Positions 501-63,563 of a stretch of DNA of 64,000 nucleotides are shown in pieces (within the stretch, counting starts at the first letter, position 1; each line of letters begins with the position of its first letter). The DNA is taken from NCBI GenBank assembly GCA_963514005.1, contig OY740799.1:8804001-8868000 (forward strand), read 5' to 3'. The position numbers and the translations under genes were made by a program. The notes beneath the pieces are model-generated. The model made no database searches. It was not told the origin of the DNA and saw only the letters and a program-made list of their open reading frames with translations. This stretch comes from Raja brachyura. Lineage: Eukaryota.

Positions 501-2479
501 CAATCAAGAAAGAAAACGTTCCATCACATTGACATCCATTCAAGACCCAGAGTGAAAATCCAGCTCACTGATCCATTGCTGTCTTTGTTCGAGAGCCTTG
601 CTTTGTTTCCGAAACTCCTTTCACCCTCAAGATTTAAAATATGTTCTAATATATGTCTGGAATATTCCAGCATAGGAGTCCGGATGGCCTATCATCCATA
701 TACAGGTTCCTGGAAGAACCTACCCCAATCATTCATCTCTGCTTTCCCCTCTAGACGCAGAAGAAAGATCTCCAGCTATTCAGTTGCATACATTTATGCA
801 ATCCTCTCCATGGGTGGCCGTGGAATCCTCCACCACATTTTCAGGGTGCGCCGACAAGATTGCAACATCTGGACTACACACCTGCAAACAGGAGTTCAAA
901 TCCAACTAGGTTGGCTGAGAATTTAAATTCAAGGAACTAATTGAAACCTAGATATAGAGGTGCAATCTATAATGGGAAGCATTAACACTACAGGATTGCT
1001 GTGAAACCCTAACTTTATTTTTTAATCAATATCCCTCAGGGTATGAAACAGATCACCCTTACCTGGTCTGATCTACATGTGACTTCAGGCCCATCAACAG
1101 GGTGGATTCTTAATTGACTTCTAAAACCAGGCTTTTTCCAGCGGCGATACAGATGGAGAATAAATAATATCTTGCCAGTGACATTGCAATTTTATGAATG
1201 AATGAATAGAAAACACATTGCTTGGACAACATTCTCCCTTCTTCCTAATTCCTTGTACGTGTGCCTTTTGGCCATCAATAATAGTCAAAGTCAAATTCTA
1301 GAATGCACGGGACATTCATCACATGCTGGTACCTCATACCAATGTTCTCCGTTGCTTCAATATCTCCATTGGTATGAAAAGGTCAAGAGGACGTATTATA
1401 AATATAGACTCATTCTGATGAAACAATGGACTACAGATGTGGTTTACAAAAAAGGACAAAGCTGGAGGAACTGAGCAGTCAGGCAGCTTCTCTGGAGAAC
1501 ATGGGTATAAGGGGCCCGACCCCTATCCATGTTCTCCAGAGAGGCGGCCTGACCTGCTGAGTTACTCCAGCAATGTGTGTGCATCTACATTTCTTTCTCA
1601 GTTTGAAACCCTCAGTAACGACGCATTCCCAATAAATAAAATACCTTCCAATAAATGCGGCCTTTAGGGAATGCGACATCTCTTAGGGTCGGAAATGAGG
1701 GCAGCAAGACTAGCTCCACCGCACACCGCAGCTTTGCCATGCTGCAAAGTCTTAAAGATGATTTGGAGTTCCTTTGAATACGTAAATTGATGCATATAAA
1801 TCATGTACAAACCCCTGTCAGAATGCTATTCTCCTTTCCTGTTCATGTTATAATTGATGGCTAAGCTGTTTAAACTGGAAATAGTTTGATGCTGGGACTT
1901 TGTTGAGTTTAATTATCAAAATTCTGAGCCAAGCAAAATGATTAAGATTGGAAAATCCAGTCACACCTTAGCAGGTGGCTCTCAGTTCCCTACAAAAGCC
2001 TTTTCAGGTGTTGCCAATTAAAATGCTACATTAAGTTCCAATTGTCACGCCTTGCAACACAACACCAGTGTCCAAAATTACAACTGAAATAAACATTGCA
2101 GTGCCCAGTCCACTCTCATATTCAACTTGATCACAGCGATTCTGCACTTCAATTCCCAATGCTCACTTCAGCTAGAAGGTTCAGTGATTCCAGAGACGTT
2201 CCCATGTTCCTTGCCGTGCGTCCCTTCTAAAATTCATTACCTTCGGCTTTGAAACTTACAATCGACCACAAATGACCAGTGGTTGAGTTAAGTTCTCCTC
2301 ACCTAAATTTCAACTCACTCCCCACCCTTCCTGATCATATGTAGTCCTGATCAGCAGAAAGCGGGAGATCCAAGATGGGGCCCAAAACCAGGCAAGTCTT
2401 TGTGTGCCAGTCACAGAAATGGACACGCAATCACGCATTACAGTCGCTACACTCTTTCAAGTCCCTACTCCAACATTAA

Positions 2480-2620
2480 ATTTTCTTATTCCCTTTATCG
2501 TGTATCTGTACACTGAGGATGGCTCAATTGTAATCATGTATTGTCTTTCTGCTGACAGATTAGAACGCAACAAAAGCTTTTCACTGTACCTCGGTACACG
2601 TGACAAGAAACTCAACTCAA
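2480..2620 (+). mobile_element. LINE-derived 3' tail fragment (same family as 54290-54430)
   Basis: attgtaatcatgtattgtc...caaaagcttttcactgtacctcggtacacgtga, also present at 54340-54430. Confidence 0.7.
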
Positions 2621-3339
2621 CGCACCTTCCCAAACGTCAAGAAGAGTCCACACATGGAATCAGATTTCTCTTCCATCCTCCTTCTCATTACATCCACAAT
2701 GATCCTCACAAGTGATCACACTGCAATGACAGGTTTGGCTCTCACCCACCTGAAGGATAACTTCTTCAACCAAAGGGTGCTAGGTGCAGTAGTTGAGGCA
2801 GGTACTATAACAGTATTTAAGATACATTTTGGACAGGTGCATGGATTGGAAAGGTCTAGAGGGATATGGGCCAAATGCAAGCTTAGATGGGGCATCTTGG
2901 TCAGCATGGCCAAGTTAGTCCAAAGGGCCAATTTCCATGCTAGGGCACCGGGCGATAATTTAAAACACAGCCTTTTTCTGGGGATTGATGCAAGTTAATT
3001 ATTGAATAAGCAAGTGGACATGATAGACATTCACTTTTCACTGGAATTTTTTGGGAAATGCAGAATTCAAGCCAACTCTGTCCATGACCAGGGATAGAAC
3101 TGTAACCCACATAAAATCAACGCAGCCCTCCGCTGTTGAATCTGGCACTTTTCACACAAAAACCGACAGCGCTCTTGGCCACCAAGAGACCATTCACGAG
3201 TCGTTGTGGCACGAGTGACTATTAGTGAAACAGATTGGCAGCATCACTGCAGGAGCAAACAGTGGCGATCAGGAACCAAGACAAGACCCCAGCACCAACA
3301 CTTTGACTTATAAATACATCGGCAATCCTTTAGGAGGCG

Positions 3340-3848
3340 CCACTGTGGCACAGCAGTAGGGTTGCTGCCAGACAGCACCAGAGCCCCGGGTTCGATCCCG
3401 AGTACAGATTCTCTCTGTGTGCAGAGTTTGTACGTTGCTCCTGCGACAGCCTGCATTTTTTTTCTCTCCGGTGACTCCAGTTTCCACCCATATTCCAAAG
3501 ACAAGCAGGTTTGTAAGTTAACAAAAGGTAGACAAAAGTGCTGGAGAAACTCAGCGGGTGTGGCAGCATCTATGGACCGAACGATATAGGCAACGTTTCG
3601 GGCCGAAACGTTGCCTATTTCCTTCGCTTCATAGATGCTGCCGCGCCCGCTGAGTTTCTCCAGCACTTTTGCCTACCTTCGATTTTCCCGCATCTGCAGT
3701 TCCTTCTTAAACAGGTTTGTGGGTCAATTGGCTTCCATAAATTGTCCCCAATGCATAGGGCGTGAAACTGGGATAACGGGTGATCATTGGTCAGTGCCGG
3801 CTCGGTGGGCCGAAGGGTCTGTTTCCACGCTGTATCTCTAAACTTAAC
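3340..3848 (+). mobile_element. tRNA-derived HE1/V-SINE-like SINE interrupted by a Penelope-derived palindrome (~3515-3710)
   Basis: A box gtggcacagcagtag, B box ggttcgatccc, CR1-like tail gggccgaagggtctgtttccacgctgtatctctaaact. CAGGTTTGT occurs on both sides of the insert. Confidence 0.8.
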
Positions 3849-9078: not shown

Positions 9079-10115
9079 TAGGTATGTTGCAAAACTTACC
9101 TTGAGCATCACTGCACTTCTGCCACTCCCCATGTGCGTGACTTTGGCGCCTTTCAGAGGGGGGCGGGCTTAAAGTGCCGTTTTTCAACAGACCTGGAAAA
9201 TCGATCAATGTCGGGCGATTTCGTTGCGGAAGAAAAATCGCTCCGACATTTCATCAATGAAGGTATTTTTAAATTACTCTAAATCATTTGTTAACTAGAG
9301 TAATTTAAAAATCACCTTCAAAAGCCGTGAGCACTGACAACCGGAAGGATTTTGCGTAGGGGAGAAAAAAGGTAAATAGTTTATTTTTATATTAAAAGTT
9401 GGTTTTTCGGGAGGCTTTAATAATATCTTTATGTTGCGAAATGGGGTCCCAAAAAATGTATGAACAAACAGTATTTTTCCTCCCGACTTCACCGCTAACC
9501 GCAACGTTCCAATCCACCGCATTCCACTAAAACCCACTCGCTAGTTGATTTAAAATGTCCATTAATTTACAGGAATCAAACACTAAATTCCTTCCATTTG
9601 GCCCAGAAATTCATGAAAATGAGATTTAAAAATTATGTTATATTGTGGATTATTGTGTGAATGTTATTTGGACACTTAGGCAATTTTTAAAAAGTTTATC
9701 TTTTCTTAAGAAATGGATAGATGTTTAGATCTACTCATTGAATTTTGTAATTAGCTACAATTAGATAACTAACTAATTATATGCTTTAAATTCAGGTCAT
9801 CCAAGATGTAAGATTGTTCCATATTTGTTTCAGAATGCTTCAATCTATAATAACTAAAAATTTCATTGAGTTCTCTTAATTTTTAAGAAAGTTATGGGCT
9901 TTTAACTTTTCCAGATCACAGCTTTTGAGTTAAGTCATTTGAAAGGCAATGGGGAGCAAGATGCTAATTTCCAAGTATGAAAATGGCCATAACTTTCGTA
10001 ATACTGAAGATATGAAAGTAAATTAGGTGTCAAATTAAACTTCTTTTTATGCTTTATCTGATGGGATAAATTGCAGACTTGATTTTTTAAATCTCAAAAT
10101 TTTGTAACATTGCTA
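9079..10115 (+). mobile_element. Non-autonomous DNA transposon, ~16-bp TIRs, apparent 7-bp TSD (hATw-like)
   Basis: Left end TAGGTATGTTGCAAAA, right end TTTTGTAACATTGCTA; TATCATA at 9072-9078 and 10116-10122; homologous to 49068-50879. Confidence 0.82.
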
Positions 10116-24356: not shown

Positions 24357-24499
24357 TCGGTCGATCCAGCTCGAGGTTTTTCAGGCGAGTGCCCTCGAGC
24401 TTGAAGGTCGAAGACAGTCGCTGAAAGGTCGCGTCAGTGGGACAGGCCCTAACACCCTTCTCAACTCGCAAATTATGTCGCCATAGTGGGACAGGCCCT
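23824..24499. mobile_element. PIF/Harbinger-type MITE with internal (GT)n
   Basis: ~28-bp TIRs GGGGCCTGTCCCACTGTGGCGACTTAAT / ATTATGTCGCCATAGTGGGACAGGCCCT, flanked by TAA and TTA (TWA target). Confidence 0.82.
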
Positions 24500-24590
24500 T
24501 TATGACTGGAATGCTCCACCACCACCACCACCACACAGTGTTTGCACGGCTACGTGAAGGAGAGGGAGACACACACACACACACACTTAC

Positions 24591-25757
24591 CGCGGGCACA
24601 CACTGAATGTCCTTGACTTTGAGCCAGGCCAGGTCCAGCAAGCCCTCGCCCCGGTAGCAGGACTGCAGGCGCCTCTTGATGCGCTCGTTAATGGTGTTGA
24701 GCACGAACATGCAGAGGACCGTCTCGTCGGGCGGTTGGCTGCGCTGCTTCTGGCCCTTGGAGAAGACGGCGAAGAGCACGTCGTCGTGGCCGGGGCTGAT
24801 GCCCAGGGACTTGGCCAGCACCGGGCCGGCCTTGGCCAGGTGGGCGGCCTGCAGGAGCCGGTACTCCACCCCGTCCTTCACGCAGCCGATGGGTATCTCC
24901 ACGTACGAGTTGAAGGTGGTGTCGGCTTGGCACAGGCGCACCAGCTTGGAGGTGTAGACCCTCTGGCGGGTGGAGCCGGGCCCGGCGTGGACCACCTCGG
25001 GCTGGAGGGTGAGGAAGTAGACGAAGGCCGAGCTGCTGAAGCCGTATATGTAGTAGATGTCAAAGTCGGGGATGACCGTGAAGGTGTCGGAGGGGATCTT
25101 GATGAGCGACGCCACGAACTCGTCGTGGAACACGTAGGAGAACATCTCGTCCGCCTCGGGGTTGGCGGCGAGCAGGCGGCTGGAGATGGTGGGGAAGTAC
25201 TCGGGCTTACCGTCCACCGCCGTGGCCACGAACAGCTTGGAGCCGTGTCCCTGGCCCGCCACGATCACCCCGAACACAGAGCCGCTGTCGTTCACCCCGG
25301 ACAGGTAGTGCTCCTTCTTGTGGAAGGGCTCGCCCAGCTTGAAGAGGTCGTTCAGCCTCAGCACCTTGCAGATGCCCTGGTACAGGCTGCCGCAGGCGAT
25401 CAGCCGCCTCTCGCCCTGGTCGATCAGCAGCATCTTGTTCACGTTGTCGGTCAGGCTGAGCGGCTCGCTGCACGGCTGCACGATGCGGGGAGGGTAGCAG
25501 TCCGGGTTGTCCTCGTCCGGCCCCGTCTGGTGCACCACCAGCAGCTGCAGGTCGCCGGACAGTTTGTAGATCCTGTTCACCGCCCCCAAGTACAAGTTGC
25601 CCGTGCGGTCGTCCAGCGCCAAGTGGTTGAACGCCCACTCCGCGTTCTCCCCTTTGAAGGCTTTATACTCCAGACTCGTGGCTTCCCGCCGCCCCGCCAC
25701 CACCGACAGCAGCGAGAGGAACATTAGGCAGCTCCTCGCCCCTCTGCACGCTGCCAT
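24591..25757 (-). CDS. plxna4: Plexin A4, first coding exon (signal peptide and most of the Sema domain; 389 codons, phase 0 end)
   Basis: Translation MAACRG...FNHLALDDRTGNLYLGAVNRIYKLS...CYPPRIVQPC...DGKPEYFPTISSR...FHDEFVASLIKIPSDTFTVIPDFDIYYIYGFSS...LDLAWLKVKDIQCVPA closely matches PLXNA4 as I recall it. Donor GCG|GTAAGT at 24591/24590. The ORF track's extension to 24381 is intron read-through. Confidence 0.96.
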
Positions 25758-46379: not shown

Positions 46380-47503
46380 GTTCAATATAATGGGTTCAGT
46401 ATTGATGTGGATAGGGAACTGGCTGGCAAACAGGAAGCAAAGAGTAGGAGTAAACGGGCCCTTTTCACAATGGCAGGCAGTGACTAGTGGGGTATCGCAA
46501 GGCTCAGTGCTGGGACCCCAGCTATTTACAATATACATTAATGATCTGGATGAGAGAATTGAAGGCAATATCTCCAAGTTTGCGGATGACACTAAGCTGG
46601 GGGGTAGTGTTAGCTGTGAGGAGAATGCTAAGAGACTGCAAGGTGACTTGGATAGGCTGGGTGAGTGGCAAATGCATGGCAGATGCATTATAATGTGGAT
46701 AAATGTGAGGTTATCCACTTTGGTGGCAAAAATAGGAAAGCAGACTATTATCTAAATGGTGGCCGATTAGGAAAAGGGGAGATGCAGCACGACCTGGGTG
46801 TCATGGTACACCAGTCATTGAAAGTAGGCATGCAGGTGCAGCAGGCAGTGAAGAAAGCGAATGGTATGTTAGCTTGCATAGCAAAAGGATTTGAATGTAG
46901 GAGCAGGGAGGTTCTACTTCAGTTGTATAGGGTCTTGGTGAGACCACACCTGGAGTATTGCGTACAGTTTTGGTCTCCAAATCTGAGGAAGGACATTATT
47001 GCCATAGAGGGAGTGCAGAGAAGGTTCACCAGACTGATTCCTGGGATGTCAGGACTGTCTTATGAATAAAGACTGGACTCGGTTTATACTCCCTAGAATT
47101 TAGGAGATTGAGAGGGGATCTTATAAAAACTTACAAAATTCTTAAGGGGTTGGACAGGCTAGATGCAGGAAGATTGTTCCCGATGTTGGGGAGGTCCAGG
47201 ACAAGGAGTCACAGCTTAAGAATAAGGGGGAAATCCTTTAGGACCGAGATGAGAAGGACTTTTTTCACCCAGAGAGTGGTGGGTCTCTGGAACTCTCTGC
47301 CACAGAGGGTAGTTGAGGCCAGTTCATTGGCTTTATTTAAGAGGGAGTTAGATGTGGCCCTTGTGGCTAAGGGGATCAGAGGGCATGGAGAGAAGGCAGG
47401 TACGGGATACTGAGTTGGATGATCAGCCATGATCATATTGAATGGCGGTGCAGGCTTGAAGGGCCGAATGGCCTACCCCTGCACCTAATTTCTATGTTTC
47501 TAT
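46380..47503 (+). mobile_element. CR1 LINE, 5'-truncated, ORF2 disrupted
   Basis: [17 protein letters not shown]...QGSVLGP...KFADDTKL...VRPHLEYCVQFWSP; (TTTCTATG)n tail. Confidence 0.95.
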
Positions 47504-48419
47504 AATTCATAATTACAATCGAGCCATTTACAGTGTACAGATACATGACAAGCGAATAACAATTAGTGCAATGTAATGCCAGCAAAGTCCGATCAAGGAT
47601 AGTCCAAGGGTCACCAATCCAGCAGATGGTAGTTCAGCACCACTCTGGTTGTGGCAGGATGGTTCAGTTGCCTGATAACAGCTGGGAAGAAATTGTCCCT
47701 GAATCTGGAGGTGTGCGCTTTCACACTTCTATACTCCAGCACAAAGTGTCAAATTGCTGCAGTTTCCCAGATTGGTAAACCTCGCCCACTGAATGTGAAA
47801 CAGTTTGGACTTGACACAAGTTCAGTGACTAATTTTGTTTTAAGGAAGAGGACTTTTTTCATTTAATGAGTTACTTTAGATGTACTTGATTCTGTTTTCC
47901 AGTATTTTCCAATTTATTATAGAGTCAGTCACACAACGCAGACACAGGCCCTTCAGCCCAACCAATCCATGCCAACCAAGACGTCCAATCTAAATGAATC
48001 CCATTTAATCACATTTGGCCCATATCTCTAAACTTTTCCTGTCCTGTCCTATATAGTGGGTCCAGTACAAAAAAAACATTTAAAATAATATATATATGCT
48101 AAGGGTATGAACATGGTTTATTAGCTATCAATGCATTTACATTGGTCGTCTGCTGGGCCCAGAATTACCCATTTACCTACGTTTGACATAAAGGATGAAG
48201 AAAAGTTGTCCAAGATGTTGGTGAGGCCACATTTGGAGTACGATGCTTAGTTTTGATCACCCTGCGATAAGAAGGATATTGTTAAGCTAGAAAGAGTGCA
48301 ATGATGGTTTGCCAGGAATTTGCCAGGATTTGAGGGCCCGAGCTATCGGGAGAGTTTGGGCACACAGAAGGTTGACTGGTATACAGAAAAGAGGTGTGTA
48401 AGATCGTAGACTTGGTAAG

Positions 48420-48983
48420 ACAGGGTCTTGGTGAGGCCACACCTGGAGTATTGCGTACAGTTTTGGTCTCCTAATTTGAGGAAGGACATTCTTGCCGTAT
48501 AGGGAGTACAGAGAAGGTTCACCAGACTGATTCCTGGGAGGCAGGACCCATATGAAGAAAGACTTGATAGACTCGGCTTGTACTTGCTGGTATTTAGAAG
48601 ATTGAGGGGGGATCTCATAGAGACTTACAAAATTCTTAAGGGGTTGGACAGGCTAGATGCAGGAAGATTGTTCCTGATGTTGGGGAAGTCCAGGACAAGG
48701 GGTCACTGTTTAAGGATAAGGGGGAAGTCTTTTAGGACCGAGATGAGAAAATCATTTTTCACACAGAGAGTGGTGAATCTGTGGAATTCTCTGCCACAGA
48801 AGGTAGTTGAGGCCAGTTCATTGGCTATATTTAAGAGGGAGTTAGATGTGGCCCTTGTGGCTAAAGGGATCAGGGGGTATGGAGAGAAGGATGATCAGCC
48901 ATGATCATATTGAATGGCGGTGCAGGCTCGAAGGGCCGAATGGCCTACTCCTGCACCTATATTCTATGTTTCTATGTTTCTAT
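48420..48983 (+). mobile_element. Young CR1 fragment inserted into an older CR1 remnant (~48200-49065)
   Basis: RPHLEYCVQFWSP...FFTQRVVNLWNSLPQKVVEAS; (TTCTATGT)n tail; decayed CR1 sequence on both sides. Confidence 0.88.
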
Positions 48984-49067
48984 AAGGGGAATTGATAGGA
49001 TTAATGCACAGTGTTTTACCTAGAGTAGGGGAATCAAGAACCAGACATGGGTTGAAGGTGAGAGGAA

Positions 49068-50879
49068 AAAATCAAGCCTGTAATTTATCCCATCAGATAA
49101 AGCATAACAAGAACTTTAATTTGACCCCTAATTCACTTTCATATCTTCAGTATTAAAACAGTTATGGCCATTTTCATACTCGGATATTAGCATCTTTTTC
49201 CCTATTGCTTTTCCATTGACTTAATACAGACGCTGTGATCGAGGACAGTCCATAACTTTCTTAAAAATTAAGAGAACTGAATGAAATTTTCCGTTATTAT
49301 AGATTGAAGCATTCTAAAAAAACAAATATAAAACATCTTACATGGATGACCTGAAATTAAAGCATATCATTAGTCAGTTACCTAATTGTAGCTAATTACA
49401 AAATTGACCGTTGTGACGGAAATAGTAATAAACACCCAGACTGCCTTGAAAATTAAAAAAATATGATATTCTCAAGATCAGAATATTATTGTATTATATG
49501 CTGTAAATCCGTAACAGATAGGTAAATAAATTACAATTTCTAGCAATAGACCAAGTCTTTATGGAGAAGATCAGTTGCTAGCTGGTACATTGGCATATCA
49601 TAATCAGTAGCATCATTATACTCCTCAGATTGTAACCAATAAGCAACTCTGTACACCTTGTTTTTCCTCAACCTTTCAATGTTGGCATTGTAAACTACAA
49701 GTTTTTATTCTTCAAACCACGCATGACATGCCCTTCTGCCCACTACTTTCCCCCATTAAGAATGTCCCATATATCATCACATTTGGAGTAGTCCAAATTC
49801 GGATAATCTCTGCGAATGCTAAATCAGTTTCTTTTGCTGGGCATTTGGATTGTCAATTTAGCATTTCTTCTTCAGAGACATCAGTTTAAAATGTAAAGGA
49901 AAAAATATATATTGAACAGCATTAACAGAAACAAGTTATTATTTGCAGTTTTAAAAAAAAGGTAGAAAAGGTTAAATACTAAAACAAATAGCAAATCCCC
50001 ACAAAAAATTCATATTCATCAGTTTCATCAAATCAATTAAATTCATCTAAATTCAATTACTAGATCTAAACATCCATCCATTTCTTAAGAAAAGGCTAAC
50101 ATTTTAAAATAGCCTAAGTATCCAAATAACAAACTGATCCCATCCGCACAATAATTCACAATATAACATGATTTTTAAATCTCACTGTCATTAACTTATA
50201 TGCCAAATGGAAGGAATTTAATGTTTAATTTCCATAAATTAATCTAGAAACATCCACTCTCCATACAATTAAAAATATTATATTTTGCATGTGACTAAAA
50301 CTGTTGTGGATATTTAGTATAAAAATATTGATTATGGATAGACAATAACTCAAAATAGTGACGATTTAGATGCTCTTATGACATGATTGTCCAAAAAAAA
50401 GAGATTTTTAAAATCATCTTGAGAGTGGATGTTTCTGGAATGTGATTGATTGGAACTTTGCCGTCGCCGTAGATTTTAAGCCCATATCGGCTGGCAAGAC
50501 ATGACCAATTCGTATGGGGCCTAAATAACATTTTCGCATCGTAAATTCAGACTAAAGCCACCCTAAGAAGCAAGATTATGTGTGAAATAAACAACTTACC
50601 ATTTGTTTTGCCCTGATACTGCGATCCGTGACGTTGAGGGCGTTAGAAGTCGCCTTTTTCTTTAATCCAGCTATTAAATTGTCCAAGGACTTAAAAAAAA
50701 AACGGGAACGGAAGTCCGATCGATTTTTCTTCATCAACTAGCAGCCCGAGGAAATCCCTCTCCGACAAGCAATACAAACCTGCATTTGAATCCCCCACCC
50801 CCCAAAAGGCTCCGGAGTCACATACACAGCCAGTGGCAGATCTGGAGCGCCACTGAAGGTAGGTTTTGTAACATCGCTA
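49068..50879 (-). mobile_element. Longer copy of the hATw-like DNA transposon, with a decayed coding remnant at 49540-49885
   Basis: Minus-strand end TAGCGATGTTACAAAACCTACC at 50879; collinear with 9079-10090 apart from extra internal sequence (mainly 49407-50050); the other TIR is lost. Confidence 0.82.
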
Positions 50880-51717: not shown

Positions 51718-52100
51718 TTACTTCTTTTTGCCACCAGCCTTGGGTTTAGGTGCTCCTGCTCCCTCAATCTCTGCTGCTAAAGCATCAATGTCATTGTCAT
51801 CTTTGGCATTTTCCTCGTTCTTGTTTTTCTGCTTCTTTCCCCATCTCCTTCGCAGTTTCCCGACTCTGTCACTTAAAAAAAAATCTCTTCCAGACATGTG
51901 GTGTCCTTTAATTTCTCGATCATGGCGGCGGCCGTTATTGCCGCGCGGACGCGGGCTCCGCTCTTTGATCTTTGGGCGCGGGTGACGGCGCGGTGGCAGC
52001 CATTACTCCCTCTGGGATGGGCCGTCTATGAAGACCTGCGGTTCCTCCGTCGATTCCTCTGGCCATCACGAAAGGCGACTTTCTCTCCGTCTCCTGACCC
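51718..52100 (-). pseudogene. eif5b: EIF5B processed-pseudogene fragment (GC-rich 5' UTR plus ~41 codons)
   Basis: ATG at 51844. Removing one extra base after ATG GGG gives MGKKQKNKNEENAKDDNDIDALAAEIEGAGAPKPKAGGKKK* (TAA at 51718-51720), matching the eIF5B N-terminus MGKKQKNKSEDSTKDDIDLDALAAEIEGAGA. The 5' boundary is approximate. Confidence 0.88.
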
Positions 52101-58618: not shown

Positions 58619-59632
58619 TATAGGCGTTGATGCGCCTGCTTGCATCTCCCATCAATATGTTTCATTCACAACAGATCATTAGTAATATGCCAAAGAACAT
58701 GGTGGCGCAAAGGTAGAGTTGCTGCTTACAGTGCTTGCAGCCCCAGAGACCCGTGTTCGATCCCAACTACAGGTGCTGTCTGTATGGTGTTTGTACGTTC
58801 TCCCCTTGACCTGTGTGGGTTTTCTCCGAGATCTTCAGTTTCCTCCCACACTCCATAGACGTAGAGGTATGCAGGTAAGTTGGCTTGATAAATGTAAAAA
58901 ATTGTCCCTTGTGTGTGTATTGTCCCTATTGTCAATATGCGGGGATCGCTGGTCGGTGAGGACCCGGTGGGCCAAAGGGCCAGTTTCCGCACTGCATCTC
59001 TAAACTAAGCTAAAAATTAAACATGAAGCTTTTGCACCATTGATGCTGCTTGGGGCATGTATCCCATGCGCCCTGAAGTTGATAATTAACTCTCTCATCT
59101 AACTGACAATGAGGGAGAGGTTGTTGTCCTGACACCATGTTAGCATTGGATAATAAGAGTGGAATTGGGCTTAATGAGGAAAATGGGATTAGCGTAGCTA
59201 GGCATGTTGGTCATCTTGGATTTGTTGGACCAAAGGCCCTGTTTCCATGCTGTACGAGTCTATAATTGTATAACTTTATTATCATTTTCCTGAGTACTTA
59301 CATACCCAGAGGAAACGAAAAACCGTTGCTCAACCAGTGTCCATTCAGTGTGCGGTAAAAAATAAATAGAAATAAAAATAAAAATACATATATCATCATG
59401 AGTTCCAATCGGCAGCGGCACGACAATGACTCTGCTTCAGTGTGTCCAGGTTGGTCGTTGGTGCGCGATACTTTGGCAGGGGGCAAAGTCCGTTTATCAG
59501 TCTTATAGCCTGCGGGAAGAAGCTGAGGAGCATCCTGCTGGTTTTGCAGCTGATGCTCCTGTACCTCTTCCCAGATGGCAGGATGGAGAATATGTGATGC
59601 GATGGGTGGTAGGGGTCTTTGATGATGGAGTT
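58619..59632 (+). repeat. Left arm of a 1014-bp inverted duplication (SINE ~58700-59015 plus Rex1 3' end)
   Basis: Reverse complement of 62550-63563; about 7 substitutions seen by eye; equal arm lengths. Confidence 0.95.
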
Positions 59633-62549: not shown

Positions 62550-63563
62550 AACTCCATCATCAAAGACCCCTACCACCCATCGCATCACATATTCTCCATC
62601 CTGCCATCTGGGAAGAGGTACAGGAGCATCAGCTGCAAAACCAGCAGGATGCTCCTCAGCTTCTTCCCGCAGGCTATAAGACTGATAAACGGACTTTGCC
62701 CCCTGCCAAAGTATCGCGCACCAACGACCAACCTGGACACACTGAAGCAGAGTCATTGTCGTGCCGCTGCCGATTGGAACTCATGATGATATATGTATTT
62801 TTATTTTTATTTCTATTTATTTTTTACCGCACACTGAATGGAAACTGGTTGAGCAACGTTTTTTCGTTTCCTCTGGGTATGTAAGTACTCAGGAAAATGA
62901 TAATAAAGTTATACAATTATAGACTCGTACAGCATGGAAACAGGGCCTTTGGTCCAACAAATCCAAGATGACCAAGATGCCTAGCTACGCTAATCCCATT
63001 TTCCTCATTAAGCCCAATTCCACTCTTATTATCCAATGCTAACATGGTGTCAGGACAACAACCTCTCCCTCATTGTCAGTTAGATGAGAGAGTTAATTAT
63101 CAACTTCAGGGCGCATGGGATACATGCCCCAAGCAGCATCAATGGTGCAAAAGCTTCATGTTTAATTTTTAGCTTAGTTTAGAGATGCAGTGCGGAAACT
63201 GGCCCTTTGGCCCACCGGGTCCTCACCGACCAGCGATCCCCGCATATTGACAATAGGGACAATACACACACAAGGGACAATTTTTTACATTTATCAAGCC
63301 AACTTACCTGCATACCTCTACGTCTATGGAGTGTGGGAGGAAACTGAAGATCTCGGAGAAAACCCACACAGGTCAAGGGGAGAACGTACAAACACCATTC
63401 AGACAGCACCTGTAGTTGGGATCGAACACGGGTCTCTGGGGCTGCAAGCGCTGTAAGCAGCAACTCTACCTTTGCGCCACCATGTTCTTTGGCATATTAC
63501 TAATGATCTGTTGTGGACGAAACATATTGATGGGAGATGCAAGCAGGCGCATCAACGCCTATA
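62550..63563 (-). repeat. Right arm of the 1014-bp inverted duplication
   Basis: Inverted copy of 58619-59632, followed by a 57-bp CR1 filler (63564-63620). Confidence 0.95.

What the first reader, a model, noticed from the sequence alone, without database searches (positions are those of the whole stretch)
49540..49885. DNA transposon carrying a decayed Spin/Ssty (spindlin)-like Tudor domain
Seen: hand translation of the minus strand inside the transposon, across two frameshifts and two stops, gives ...DYPNLDYSKCDDIWDILNG-KVVGRRACHAWFEE*KLVVYNANIERLRKNKVYRVAYWLQSEEYNDATDYDMPMYQLATDLLHKDLVYC*. It is absent from the ORF track. Known: Spin/Ssty repeats start with patterns like IVGCRIQHGW / MIGKAVEHMFE and end with LYMYQLLDDYKEGDL, and spindlins read methylated histone H3 through aromatic cages. 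Inference: this is the C-terminus of the element's transposase or an accessory protein, i.e. a cut-and-paste transposon with a built-in chromatin-reader module that could steer insertion. It may also bear on the origin of vertebrate spindlin domains.
Basis: partly seen in the sequence, partly recalled or inferred. Interest (0 to 1): 0.8.

Follow-up and report, generated by a model that had tools for sequence, protein, structure and literature searches.

The report
Jumping gene with Spindlin-like reader tail
This is a dead, internally deleted copy of a cut-and-paste jumping gene whose intact relatives in the same genome encode a 978-residue enzyme ending in a domain predicted to fold like Spindlin's histone-mark reader, which likely ties the enzyme to chromatin, although landing sites show no pull towards CpG islands or repeats.

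Summary
The peptide is real. It is the decayed C-terminus of a transposase in a 1.85-kb non-autonomous deletion copy (window 49067-50879, minus strand). The genome, likely a cartilaginous fish, holds young 4.26-kb relatives with open 978-aa frames; 46 of 46 young insertions have perfect 7-bp target duplications. A full-length homologue folds like the hAT transposase Hermes (E 3e-6). The domain is integral: 86 of 87 core-selected homologues long enough to reach it carry it (Hydra, molluscs, echinoderms, fish). Its model (pLDDT 92) matches Spindlin1 repeat 2 best (Z 8.0-8.7, rmsd 1.7-4.0 A); Pfam Spin-Ssty gives no hit. Three cage aromatics align by profile, a fourth is inferred, and the acids matching Spindlin's H3-tail anchors D184/D189 are 100%/97% conserved. 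Binding is untested. Insertion sites show no CpG-island or repeat bias (44 sites vs 40 controls), so steering is unsupported. This scan reported the same fusion earlier in sponge and sea-urchin DNA; new here are a vertebrate host, recently active intact copies and the target-site tests. I found no paper describing it. A transposon origin of vertebrate spindlins stays open.

The parts
49067..50879 (-). Non-autonomous 1.85-kb deletion copy of a hAT-like transposon; last 28 bases with the 3' inverted repeat are missing, so no target duplication can be checked here
   Evidence: 90% to the family majority over 1,877 columns; ends at family position 1867 of 1895
50864..50879 (-). 5' terminal inverted repeat (TAGCGATGTTACAAAA)
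49837..49881 (-). Remnant of the first 15 transposase codons; the splice acceptor just upstream (AG in the family) reads TG in this copy
   Evidence: splicing inferred from sequence, not shown
49834..49837 (-). Junction of a 2.6-kb internal deletion that removes the whole catalytic region and puts the tail out of frame with the start codon
   Evidence: blastn to the 4.26-kb element jumps from position 859 to 3455; a contig joint of the same size in a public run
49540..49834 (-). Decayed coding sequence of the C-terminal Spin/Ssty-like Tudor domain (about transposase residues 884-978); Tudor barrel from about 49752; conserved W at 49719, Y at 49692, Y at 49641, Y at 49602, D at 49572, D at 49557
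9079..10115 (+). Complete copy of a second, 1,035-bp non-autonomous family of the same transposon, without the Tudor part; 7-bp duplication TATCATA

Best explanation
The window holds a dead deletion copy of a Hermes-like (hAT-type) cut-and-paste transposon whose intact transposase ends in a conserved domain predicted to be a Spindlin-like Tudor barrel, which likely binds a methylated histone H3 tail and so would tether the transposase to chromatin. Shown: element anatomy, 7-bp duplication with C-W-W-W-W-W-G bias, open 978-aa frames, domain present in nearly all full-length relatives. Predicted: Hermes-like catalytic core (D429, D506, C531xxH534, E784) joined by a long helix to the Tudor barrel. 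Inferred: W920, Y929, Y946 and F/Y959 form the cage, and D969 and D974 hold the H3 N-terminus as D184 and D189 do in Spindlin1 repeat 2, pointing to methyl-K4; a basic hairpin may also grip DNA. The tether more likely aids loading on chromatin than imposes a sharp target choice. The window copy itself makes no protein and was moved in trans.
For: Foldseek PDB list dominated by spindlins, prob about 1.0, E 0.03-0.2. VIA-align: the first 24 of 50 rows are spindlins, Z 7.4-8.7, repeat 2 (residues 123-193); next RDM15 Tudor 7.2. hhalign to Spindlin repeat 1: prob 92.5%, score 37.3 against a maximum of 18.6 in 40 column shuffles, aligning W62, W72 and Y91 with the domain's W, Y and Y. Among 29 Tudor stretches of this genome, spindlin repeats 1 and 2 take 4 of the top 5 profile scores. 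In 89 homologues picked by the catalytic core, cage positions are 98, 99, 99 and 94% aromatic, D184-like 100% Asp and D189-like 97% acidic. Cage and anchor residues of Spindlin1 are from PMC3967050 (passages). dN/dS 0.33 between the two lineages (6 vs 9 changes, p 0.044). Hermes match E 3e-6.
Against: No Pfam Spin-Ssty hit in 5 copies, and it is not among the 25 families listed for the 82 alignment members. No Foldseek hit at E<=0.001. The repeat-2 profile score (15.9) lies inside its shuffle range. In the wide VIA search RDM15 (7.2), Spindlin-4 (7.1) and a TraI SH3-like domain (6.8) are tied, all under Z 8. The fourth cage residue (Y177) aligns by sequence to a non-aromatic position; its match to F/Y959 rests on my reading of the predicted strand. 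GC, CpG and repeat content around 44 young sites do not differ from 40 controls (CGI-like within 1 kb 8/44 vs 6/40, p 0.77; site inside a repeat 16/44 vs 15/40), nor do 41 flanks of the older family differ from 80 controls.
Confidence: 0.55

Rival explanations
1. The barrel is a DNA-binding SH3-like domain, as in Tn7 TnsB or retroviral integrase C-termini, that grips element ends or target DNA; the aromatics are structural.
For: TnsB N-terminal domain Z 6.8 and TraI Z 6.8; strand 2-3 hairpin is 64-92% Lys/Arg at five positions; no chromatin-proxy bias at insertion sites.
Against: Spindlins score about 1.5-2 Z higher; the conserved positions include those of the Spindlin cage and acidic anchors; the loop and helix are strongly acidic.
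Confidence: 0.2
2. The cage binds a methylated non-histone partner (a host factor, a PIWI-type methyl-arginine tail, or the transposase itself) for regulation or evasion of silencing, not chromatin.
For: Repeat 1, the best profile match, reads methyl-arginine in Spindlin1 (PMC3967050 passages); Spindlin1 structures with non-histone peptides are among the hits; flat insertion profile.
Against: Conservation of the D184/D189-like acids fits an H3 N-terminus; no partner is in view.
Confidence: 0.17
3. The 1.85-kb family keeps the domain because it makes a stand-alone reader from a second, in-frame ATG.
For: The family majority has a 115-codon open frame with an ATG at codon 8 behind an acceptor-like site.
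Against: Copies drift near neutrally (pN/pS 0.79; 0.87 without CpG codons; 12 of 30 with a stop, 9 with a frameshift); the younger 1,035-bp family dropped the domain (34 of 35 newly fetched young copies).
Confidence: 0.04
4. A host spindlin fragment captured by this one copy, without function.
For: The genome has two spindlin genes.
Against: The domain is about 15-19% identical to spindlins but 60-70% to transposase tails of other animals, and is in 86 of 87 full-reach homologues.
Confidence: 0.01

Closest known systems
Hermes and the hAT superfamily (PDB 6DWZ, 4D1Q, 8EDG)
   Same: Predicted RNase H core with helical insertion; DDE and CxxH positions; short inverted repeats starting TAG; top 10 Foldseek hits.
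   Different: 7-bp not 8-bp duplication; 978 aa; no Pfam BED finger or hAT dimerisation hit; 9-13% identity, rmsd 12-21 A; long coiled coil and C-terminal Tudor domain.
hATw group (RepeatMasker label hAT-hATw)
   Same: 7-bp duplication and presence in Hydra and molluscs fit what I recall of hATw (recalled; no call defines it).
   Different: No hATw sequence could be compared; the two papers found use the name only as a label. Fungal hAT7 also has 7-bp duplications but clusters with Ac/Tam3 (PMC12730594 passages).
Spindlin1-4, Spin/Ssty repeats (PF02513)
   Same: vG...HxW start, cage aromatics, C-terminal helix and final strand with a Y-Q/E-L-x-x-D-x-x-x-G-D-L pattern as in repeat 2.
   Different: Single repeat, not three; about 8 residues longer; basic hairpin; below the Pfam cut-off.
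RDM15 Tudor (H3K4me1 reader, PDB 7DE9) and PTM/DIR17-type Tudors
   Same: Z 7.2, rmsd 1.8 A over 57 residues; weak Pfam PF21743 hits in 5 of 82 members; W/Y/Y cage (PMC8184781 passages).
   Different: Shorter match (57 aligned vs 63-73 for spindlins); plant host protein.
Transposons with reader domains (chromoviruses; hAT-Chromo in Ephydatia; PHD fusions in cnidarians)
   Same: Reader fused to a transposition enzyme (bioRxiv 10.1101/2021.11.30.470311, passages).
   Different: Those readers are Chromo or PHD and the hAT case is lineage-restricted; this is Spin-like Tudor across many phyla. The word 'spin' does not occur in that main text; its supplements were not visible.

Membership tests
hAT superfamily | RNase H DDE core with helical insertion (Hermes fold) | tested here: met
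   Model of homologue P0089; Hermes E 3e-6 to 2e-4, 10 of 10 hits at E<=0.001; sequence profile alone finds no transposase in PDB
hAT superfamily | Conserved D, D, CxxH, E (motif recalled) | tested here: met
   D506, C531, H534, E784 invariant in 9 of 9; D429 is Asn in one
hAT superfamily | Short terminal inverted repeats | tested here: met
   About 16 bp at both ends of 46 of 46 young copies
hAT superfamily | 8-bp target duplication (canonical) | tested here: not met
   7 bp, perfect in 46 of 46; 13 of 17 older copies within one mismatch; 5-, 6- and 7-bp hAT groups exist
hAT superfamily | BED finger and PF05699 dimerisation domain | tested here: not met
   No such hit in 20 and 7 proteins; so filed as hAT-like, not canonical hAT
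hATw group | Sequence similarity to Repbase/Dfam hATw transposases | not testable with these tools
   No such library here
Spin/Ssty (PF02513) | Pfam curated cut-off | tested here: not met
   the genome search with PF02513 returned 7 matches, six spindlin repeats and one weak unrelated stretch
Spin/Ssty (PF02513) | Tudor barrel plus helix and extra strand | tested here: met
   Predicted model, Z 8.0-8.7 to repeat 2
Spin/Ssty (PF02513) | Four-residue aromatic cage | tested here: inconclusive
   Three positions align by profile; the fourth is inferred; no residue-level superposition was available
Spin/Ssty (PF02513) | Three tandem repeats | tested here: not met
   One domain in each of 89 homologues
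Spin/Ssty (PF02513) | Binding of methylated histone tail | not testable with these tools
   Needs a binding assay

The most novel reading that the evidence does not exclude
A pan-animal clade of hAT-like transposases carries the single-copy ancestor of the Spin/Ssty repeat and uses it to read methylated H3; vertebrate spindlins arose by capture and triplication of this transposon domain, so a host chromatin reader descends from a transposase tail.
Probability: 0.2. Interest if true: 0.9.

Novelty: new variant of a known kind. Interest (0 to 1): 0.62.

Why it matters
Few cut-and-paste transposases are known to carry their own histone reader, and my ten paper searches found none with a Spindlin-type domain. 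Near-identical copies with open frames in a vertebrate genome make reader-guided transposition directly testable and could yield a gene-delivery enzyme with a swappable reader. The domain's spread from Hydra to fish offers a candidate source for spindlins, described as conserved in vertebrates (PMC3967050).

Tried and rejected
Single-sequence Pfam and PDB searches of the domain: nothing significant. Profile against PDB sequences: spindlins only at E 0.29-1, below an unrelated hydrolase at 0.12. Targeting to CpG islands or repeats: no signal. The proxies are crude, the samples small and selection after insertion can erase a bias; the window copy itself lies about 0.8-1 kb from a CpG-rich first exon, a single anecdote. 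Stand-alone reader from the deletion family: rejected. Expression: no RNA holder listed, and the contigs laid show no splice joint among those printed; no verdict. The protein atlas and the complex prediction with an H3 tail were not available, so co-folding is untested. L069, the seventh PF02513 match, is not the element. The Kojima review was not held. Academ and P/Galileo were considered from the TAG ends and the 7-bp duplication (recalled features) and dropped after the Hermes match.

Full report
Observation. The DNA is a dispersed repeat: 2,158 first-look candidates, 40 scored at 91-100%. I fetched 30. Seventeen show both ends, about 1.85 kb apart in most, with 16-bp inverted repeats beginning TAG; 8 of 17 have a perfect 7-bp duplication and 13 of 17 at most one mismatch. 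The window copy spans 49067-50879 and lacks its last 28 bases. The host is likely a cartilaginous fish, inferred from its spindlin's best named matches.

The parent element. A library relative used as query found 97 matches in the genome; 6 of the top 10 have no stop over the query and open frames of 891-1,023 codons. Eleven of 12 fetched stretches held complete elements of 3.9-4.3 kb, 95-99% alike, each with a perfect 7-bp duplication; the frame is 978 aa. With 35 more loci, 46 of 46 young copies have perfect 7-bp duplications with a C-W-W-W-W-W-G bias; 34 belong to a 1,035-bp family without the domain. The window family joins codon 15 out of frame to about codon 884 and differs by 24-28% in its 5' part, so its parent was a sister lineage. 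Its copies drift near neutrally (pN/pS 0.79), while the domain shows dN/dS 0.33 between lineages on few changes (p 0.044).

The enzyme. I folded homologue P0089 (990 aa, 33 rows, pLDDT 80), not this genome's own protein. All ten hits at E<=0.001 are Hermes, with large rmsd. D506, C531, H534 and E784 are invariant in nine aligned proteins, and D429 is Asp in eight. Pfam finds nothing above cut-off. It is hAT-like with a 7-bp duplication; hATw is my recalled best label and is untested.

The domain is integral. 211 library proteins match it; in 115 of the 120 stored hits that reach its end it lies within 12 residues of the C-terminus. In a search on the catalytic core alone (131 hits, 120 listed), 89 of 120 carry it. 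Of the 31 without, 30 are too short to reach it and one appears fused, so 86 of 87 full-reach proteins have it. Named carriers include Hydra, Patella, Nucella, Littorina, Biomphalaria, Priapulus, Nymphon, Asterias, Anneissia and the loach Misgurnus; a chiton protein is 53% identical over its length. In a tree of 38 chosen rows this genome's enzyme groups with chiton, sea-urchin and unnamed rows (99/97), apart from three teleost lineages; horizontal transfer is suggested, not tested.

Fold. The domain model has pLDDT 92. Foldseek returns mostly spindlins, none at E<=0.001. VIA-align on those chains ranks spindlins in rows 1-24 (Z up to 8.7, rmsd 2.2 A, 66 residues, repeat 2), then RDM15 7.2, BAHCC1 6.9, TraI and TnsB 6.8. 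In the representative library RDM15, Spindlin-4 and TraI are tied at 6.8-7.2. hhalign gives 92.5% with repeat 1 (37.3 vs at most 18.6 in 40 shuffles), a score inside the shuffle range with repeat 2, and nothing with repeat 3; six repeats of this genome together give 69.7%. Among 29 Tudor stretches of the genome (some cut by introns) spindlin repeats 1 and 2 score 6.6-9.9 bits, one LBR-like stretch (name recalled) 7.1, all others at most 1.4. So Tudor is firm and Spin-like is probable, but Pfam membership is not met.

Mechanism. Spindlin1 repeat 2 cages H3K4me3 with F141, W151, Y170 and Y177 and anchors A1-R2 with E142, D184 and D189 (PMC3967050, passages). The domain's W920, Y929 and Y946 align to the first three cage positions. 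F/Y959 on the last barrel strand is my inferred fourth; the plain sequence alignment puts Y177 three residues later. D969 and D974 align to D184 and D189; E142 has no counterpart. Conservation in core-selected homologues is 98, 99, 99, 94, 100 and 97%. I therefore favour a methyl-H3 reader that tethers the transposase (0.55). A basic hairpin keeps a DNA-binding role open.

Against steering. 44 of the 46 young sites (2 dropped for short flanks) and 40 chromosome-matched controls do not differ in GC, CpG ratio, CGI-like windows or repeat cover at 0.25-2.2 kb (all p>0.2); 41 flanks of the older family agree. Strong promoter or repeat targeting is not seen; weak or purged bias is not excluded.

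Prior knowledge. Paper searches (listings and abstract starts) found no description of a Spin/Tudor-bearing hAT transposase. I read passages of PMC3967050, PMC8184781, PMC12730594, PMC8721813, PMC6128900, PMC12905397 and bioRxiv 10.1101/2021.11.30.470311. Four earlier notes of this scan describe the same fusion in sponge and sea-urchin DNA; they are not independent evidence.

Spindlin origin. The named rows among the best 120 of 369 spindlin hits are jawed vertebrates (the other 249 were not shown), while the transposon domain reaches Hydra. That fits capture and triplication from the transposon, but an old capture of a lost host Tudor fits too. Probability 0.2.

Verdict. Real, a new variant of a known kind; interest 0.62.

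Noticed in passing
window 9079-10115 (+): Complete 1,035-bp non-autonomous copy of the same transposon group, with perfect 7-bp duplication and no Tudor part.
   Followed up: yes
window 51722-51844 (-): First coding exon resembling EIF5B (name recalled) in CpG-rich DNA; the element lies about 0.84 kb into the following intron, same orientation.
   Followed up: partly
window 24381-25835 (-): 484-codon frame resembling the first coding exon of a plexin A (name recalled).
   Followed up: no
window 58619-59632 and 62550-63563: 1,014-bp inverted pair, 99% complementary, 2.9 kb apart.
   Followed up: no
window 46400-49066: Fragments of CR1/L2-type LINEs (name recalled); the element's broken 3' end abuts one.
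   Followed up: no
L057:7726-9016: A full-length element and a second copy of the group lie tail to tail about 480 bases apart.
   Followed up: no
L051:4210-7143: Core 75% identical to unnamed protein P0277 and whole protein 53% to a chiton protein; patchy tree suggests horizontal transfer.
   Followed up: partly
L063-L068: Two spindlin genes with each Spin/Ssty repeat matched on a separate genomic stretch, apparently one exon each.
   Followed up: partly
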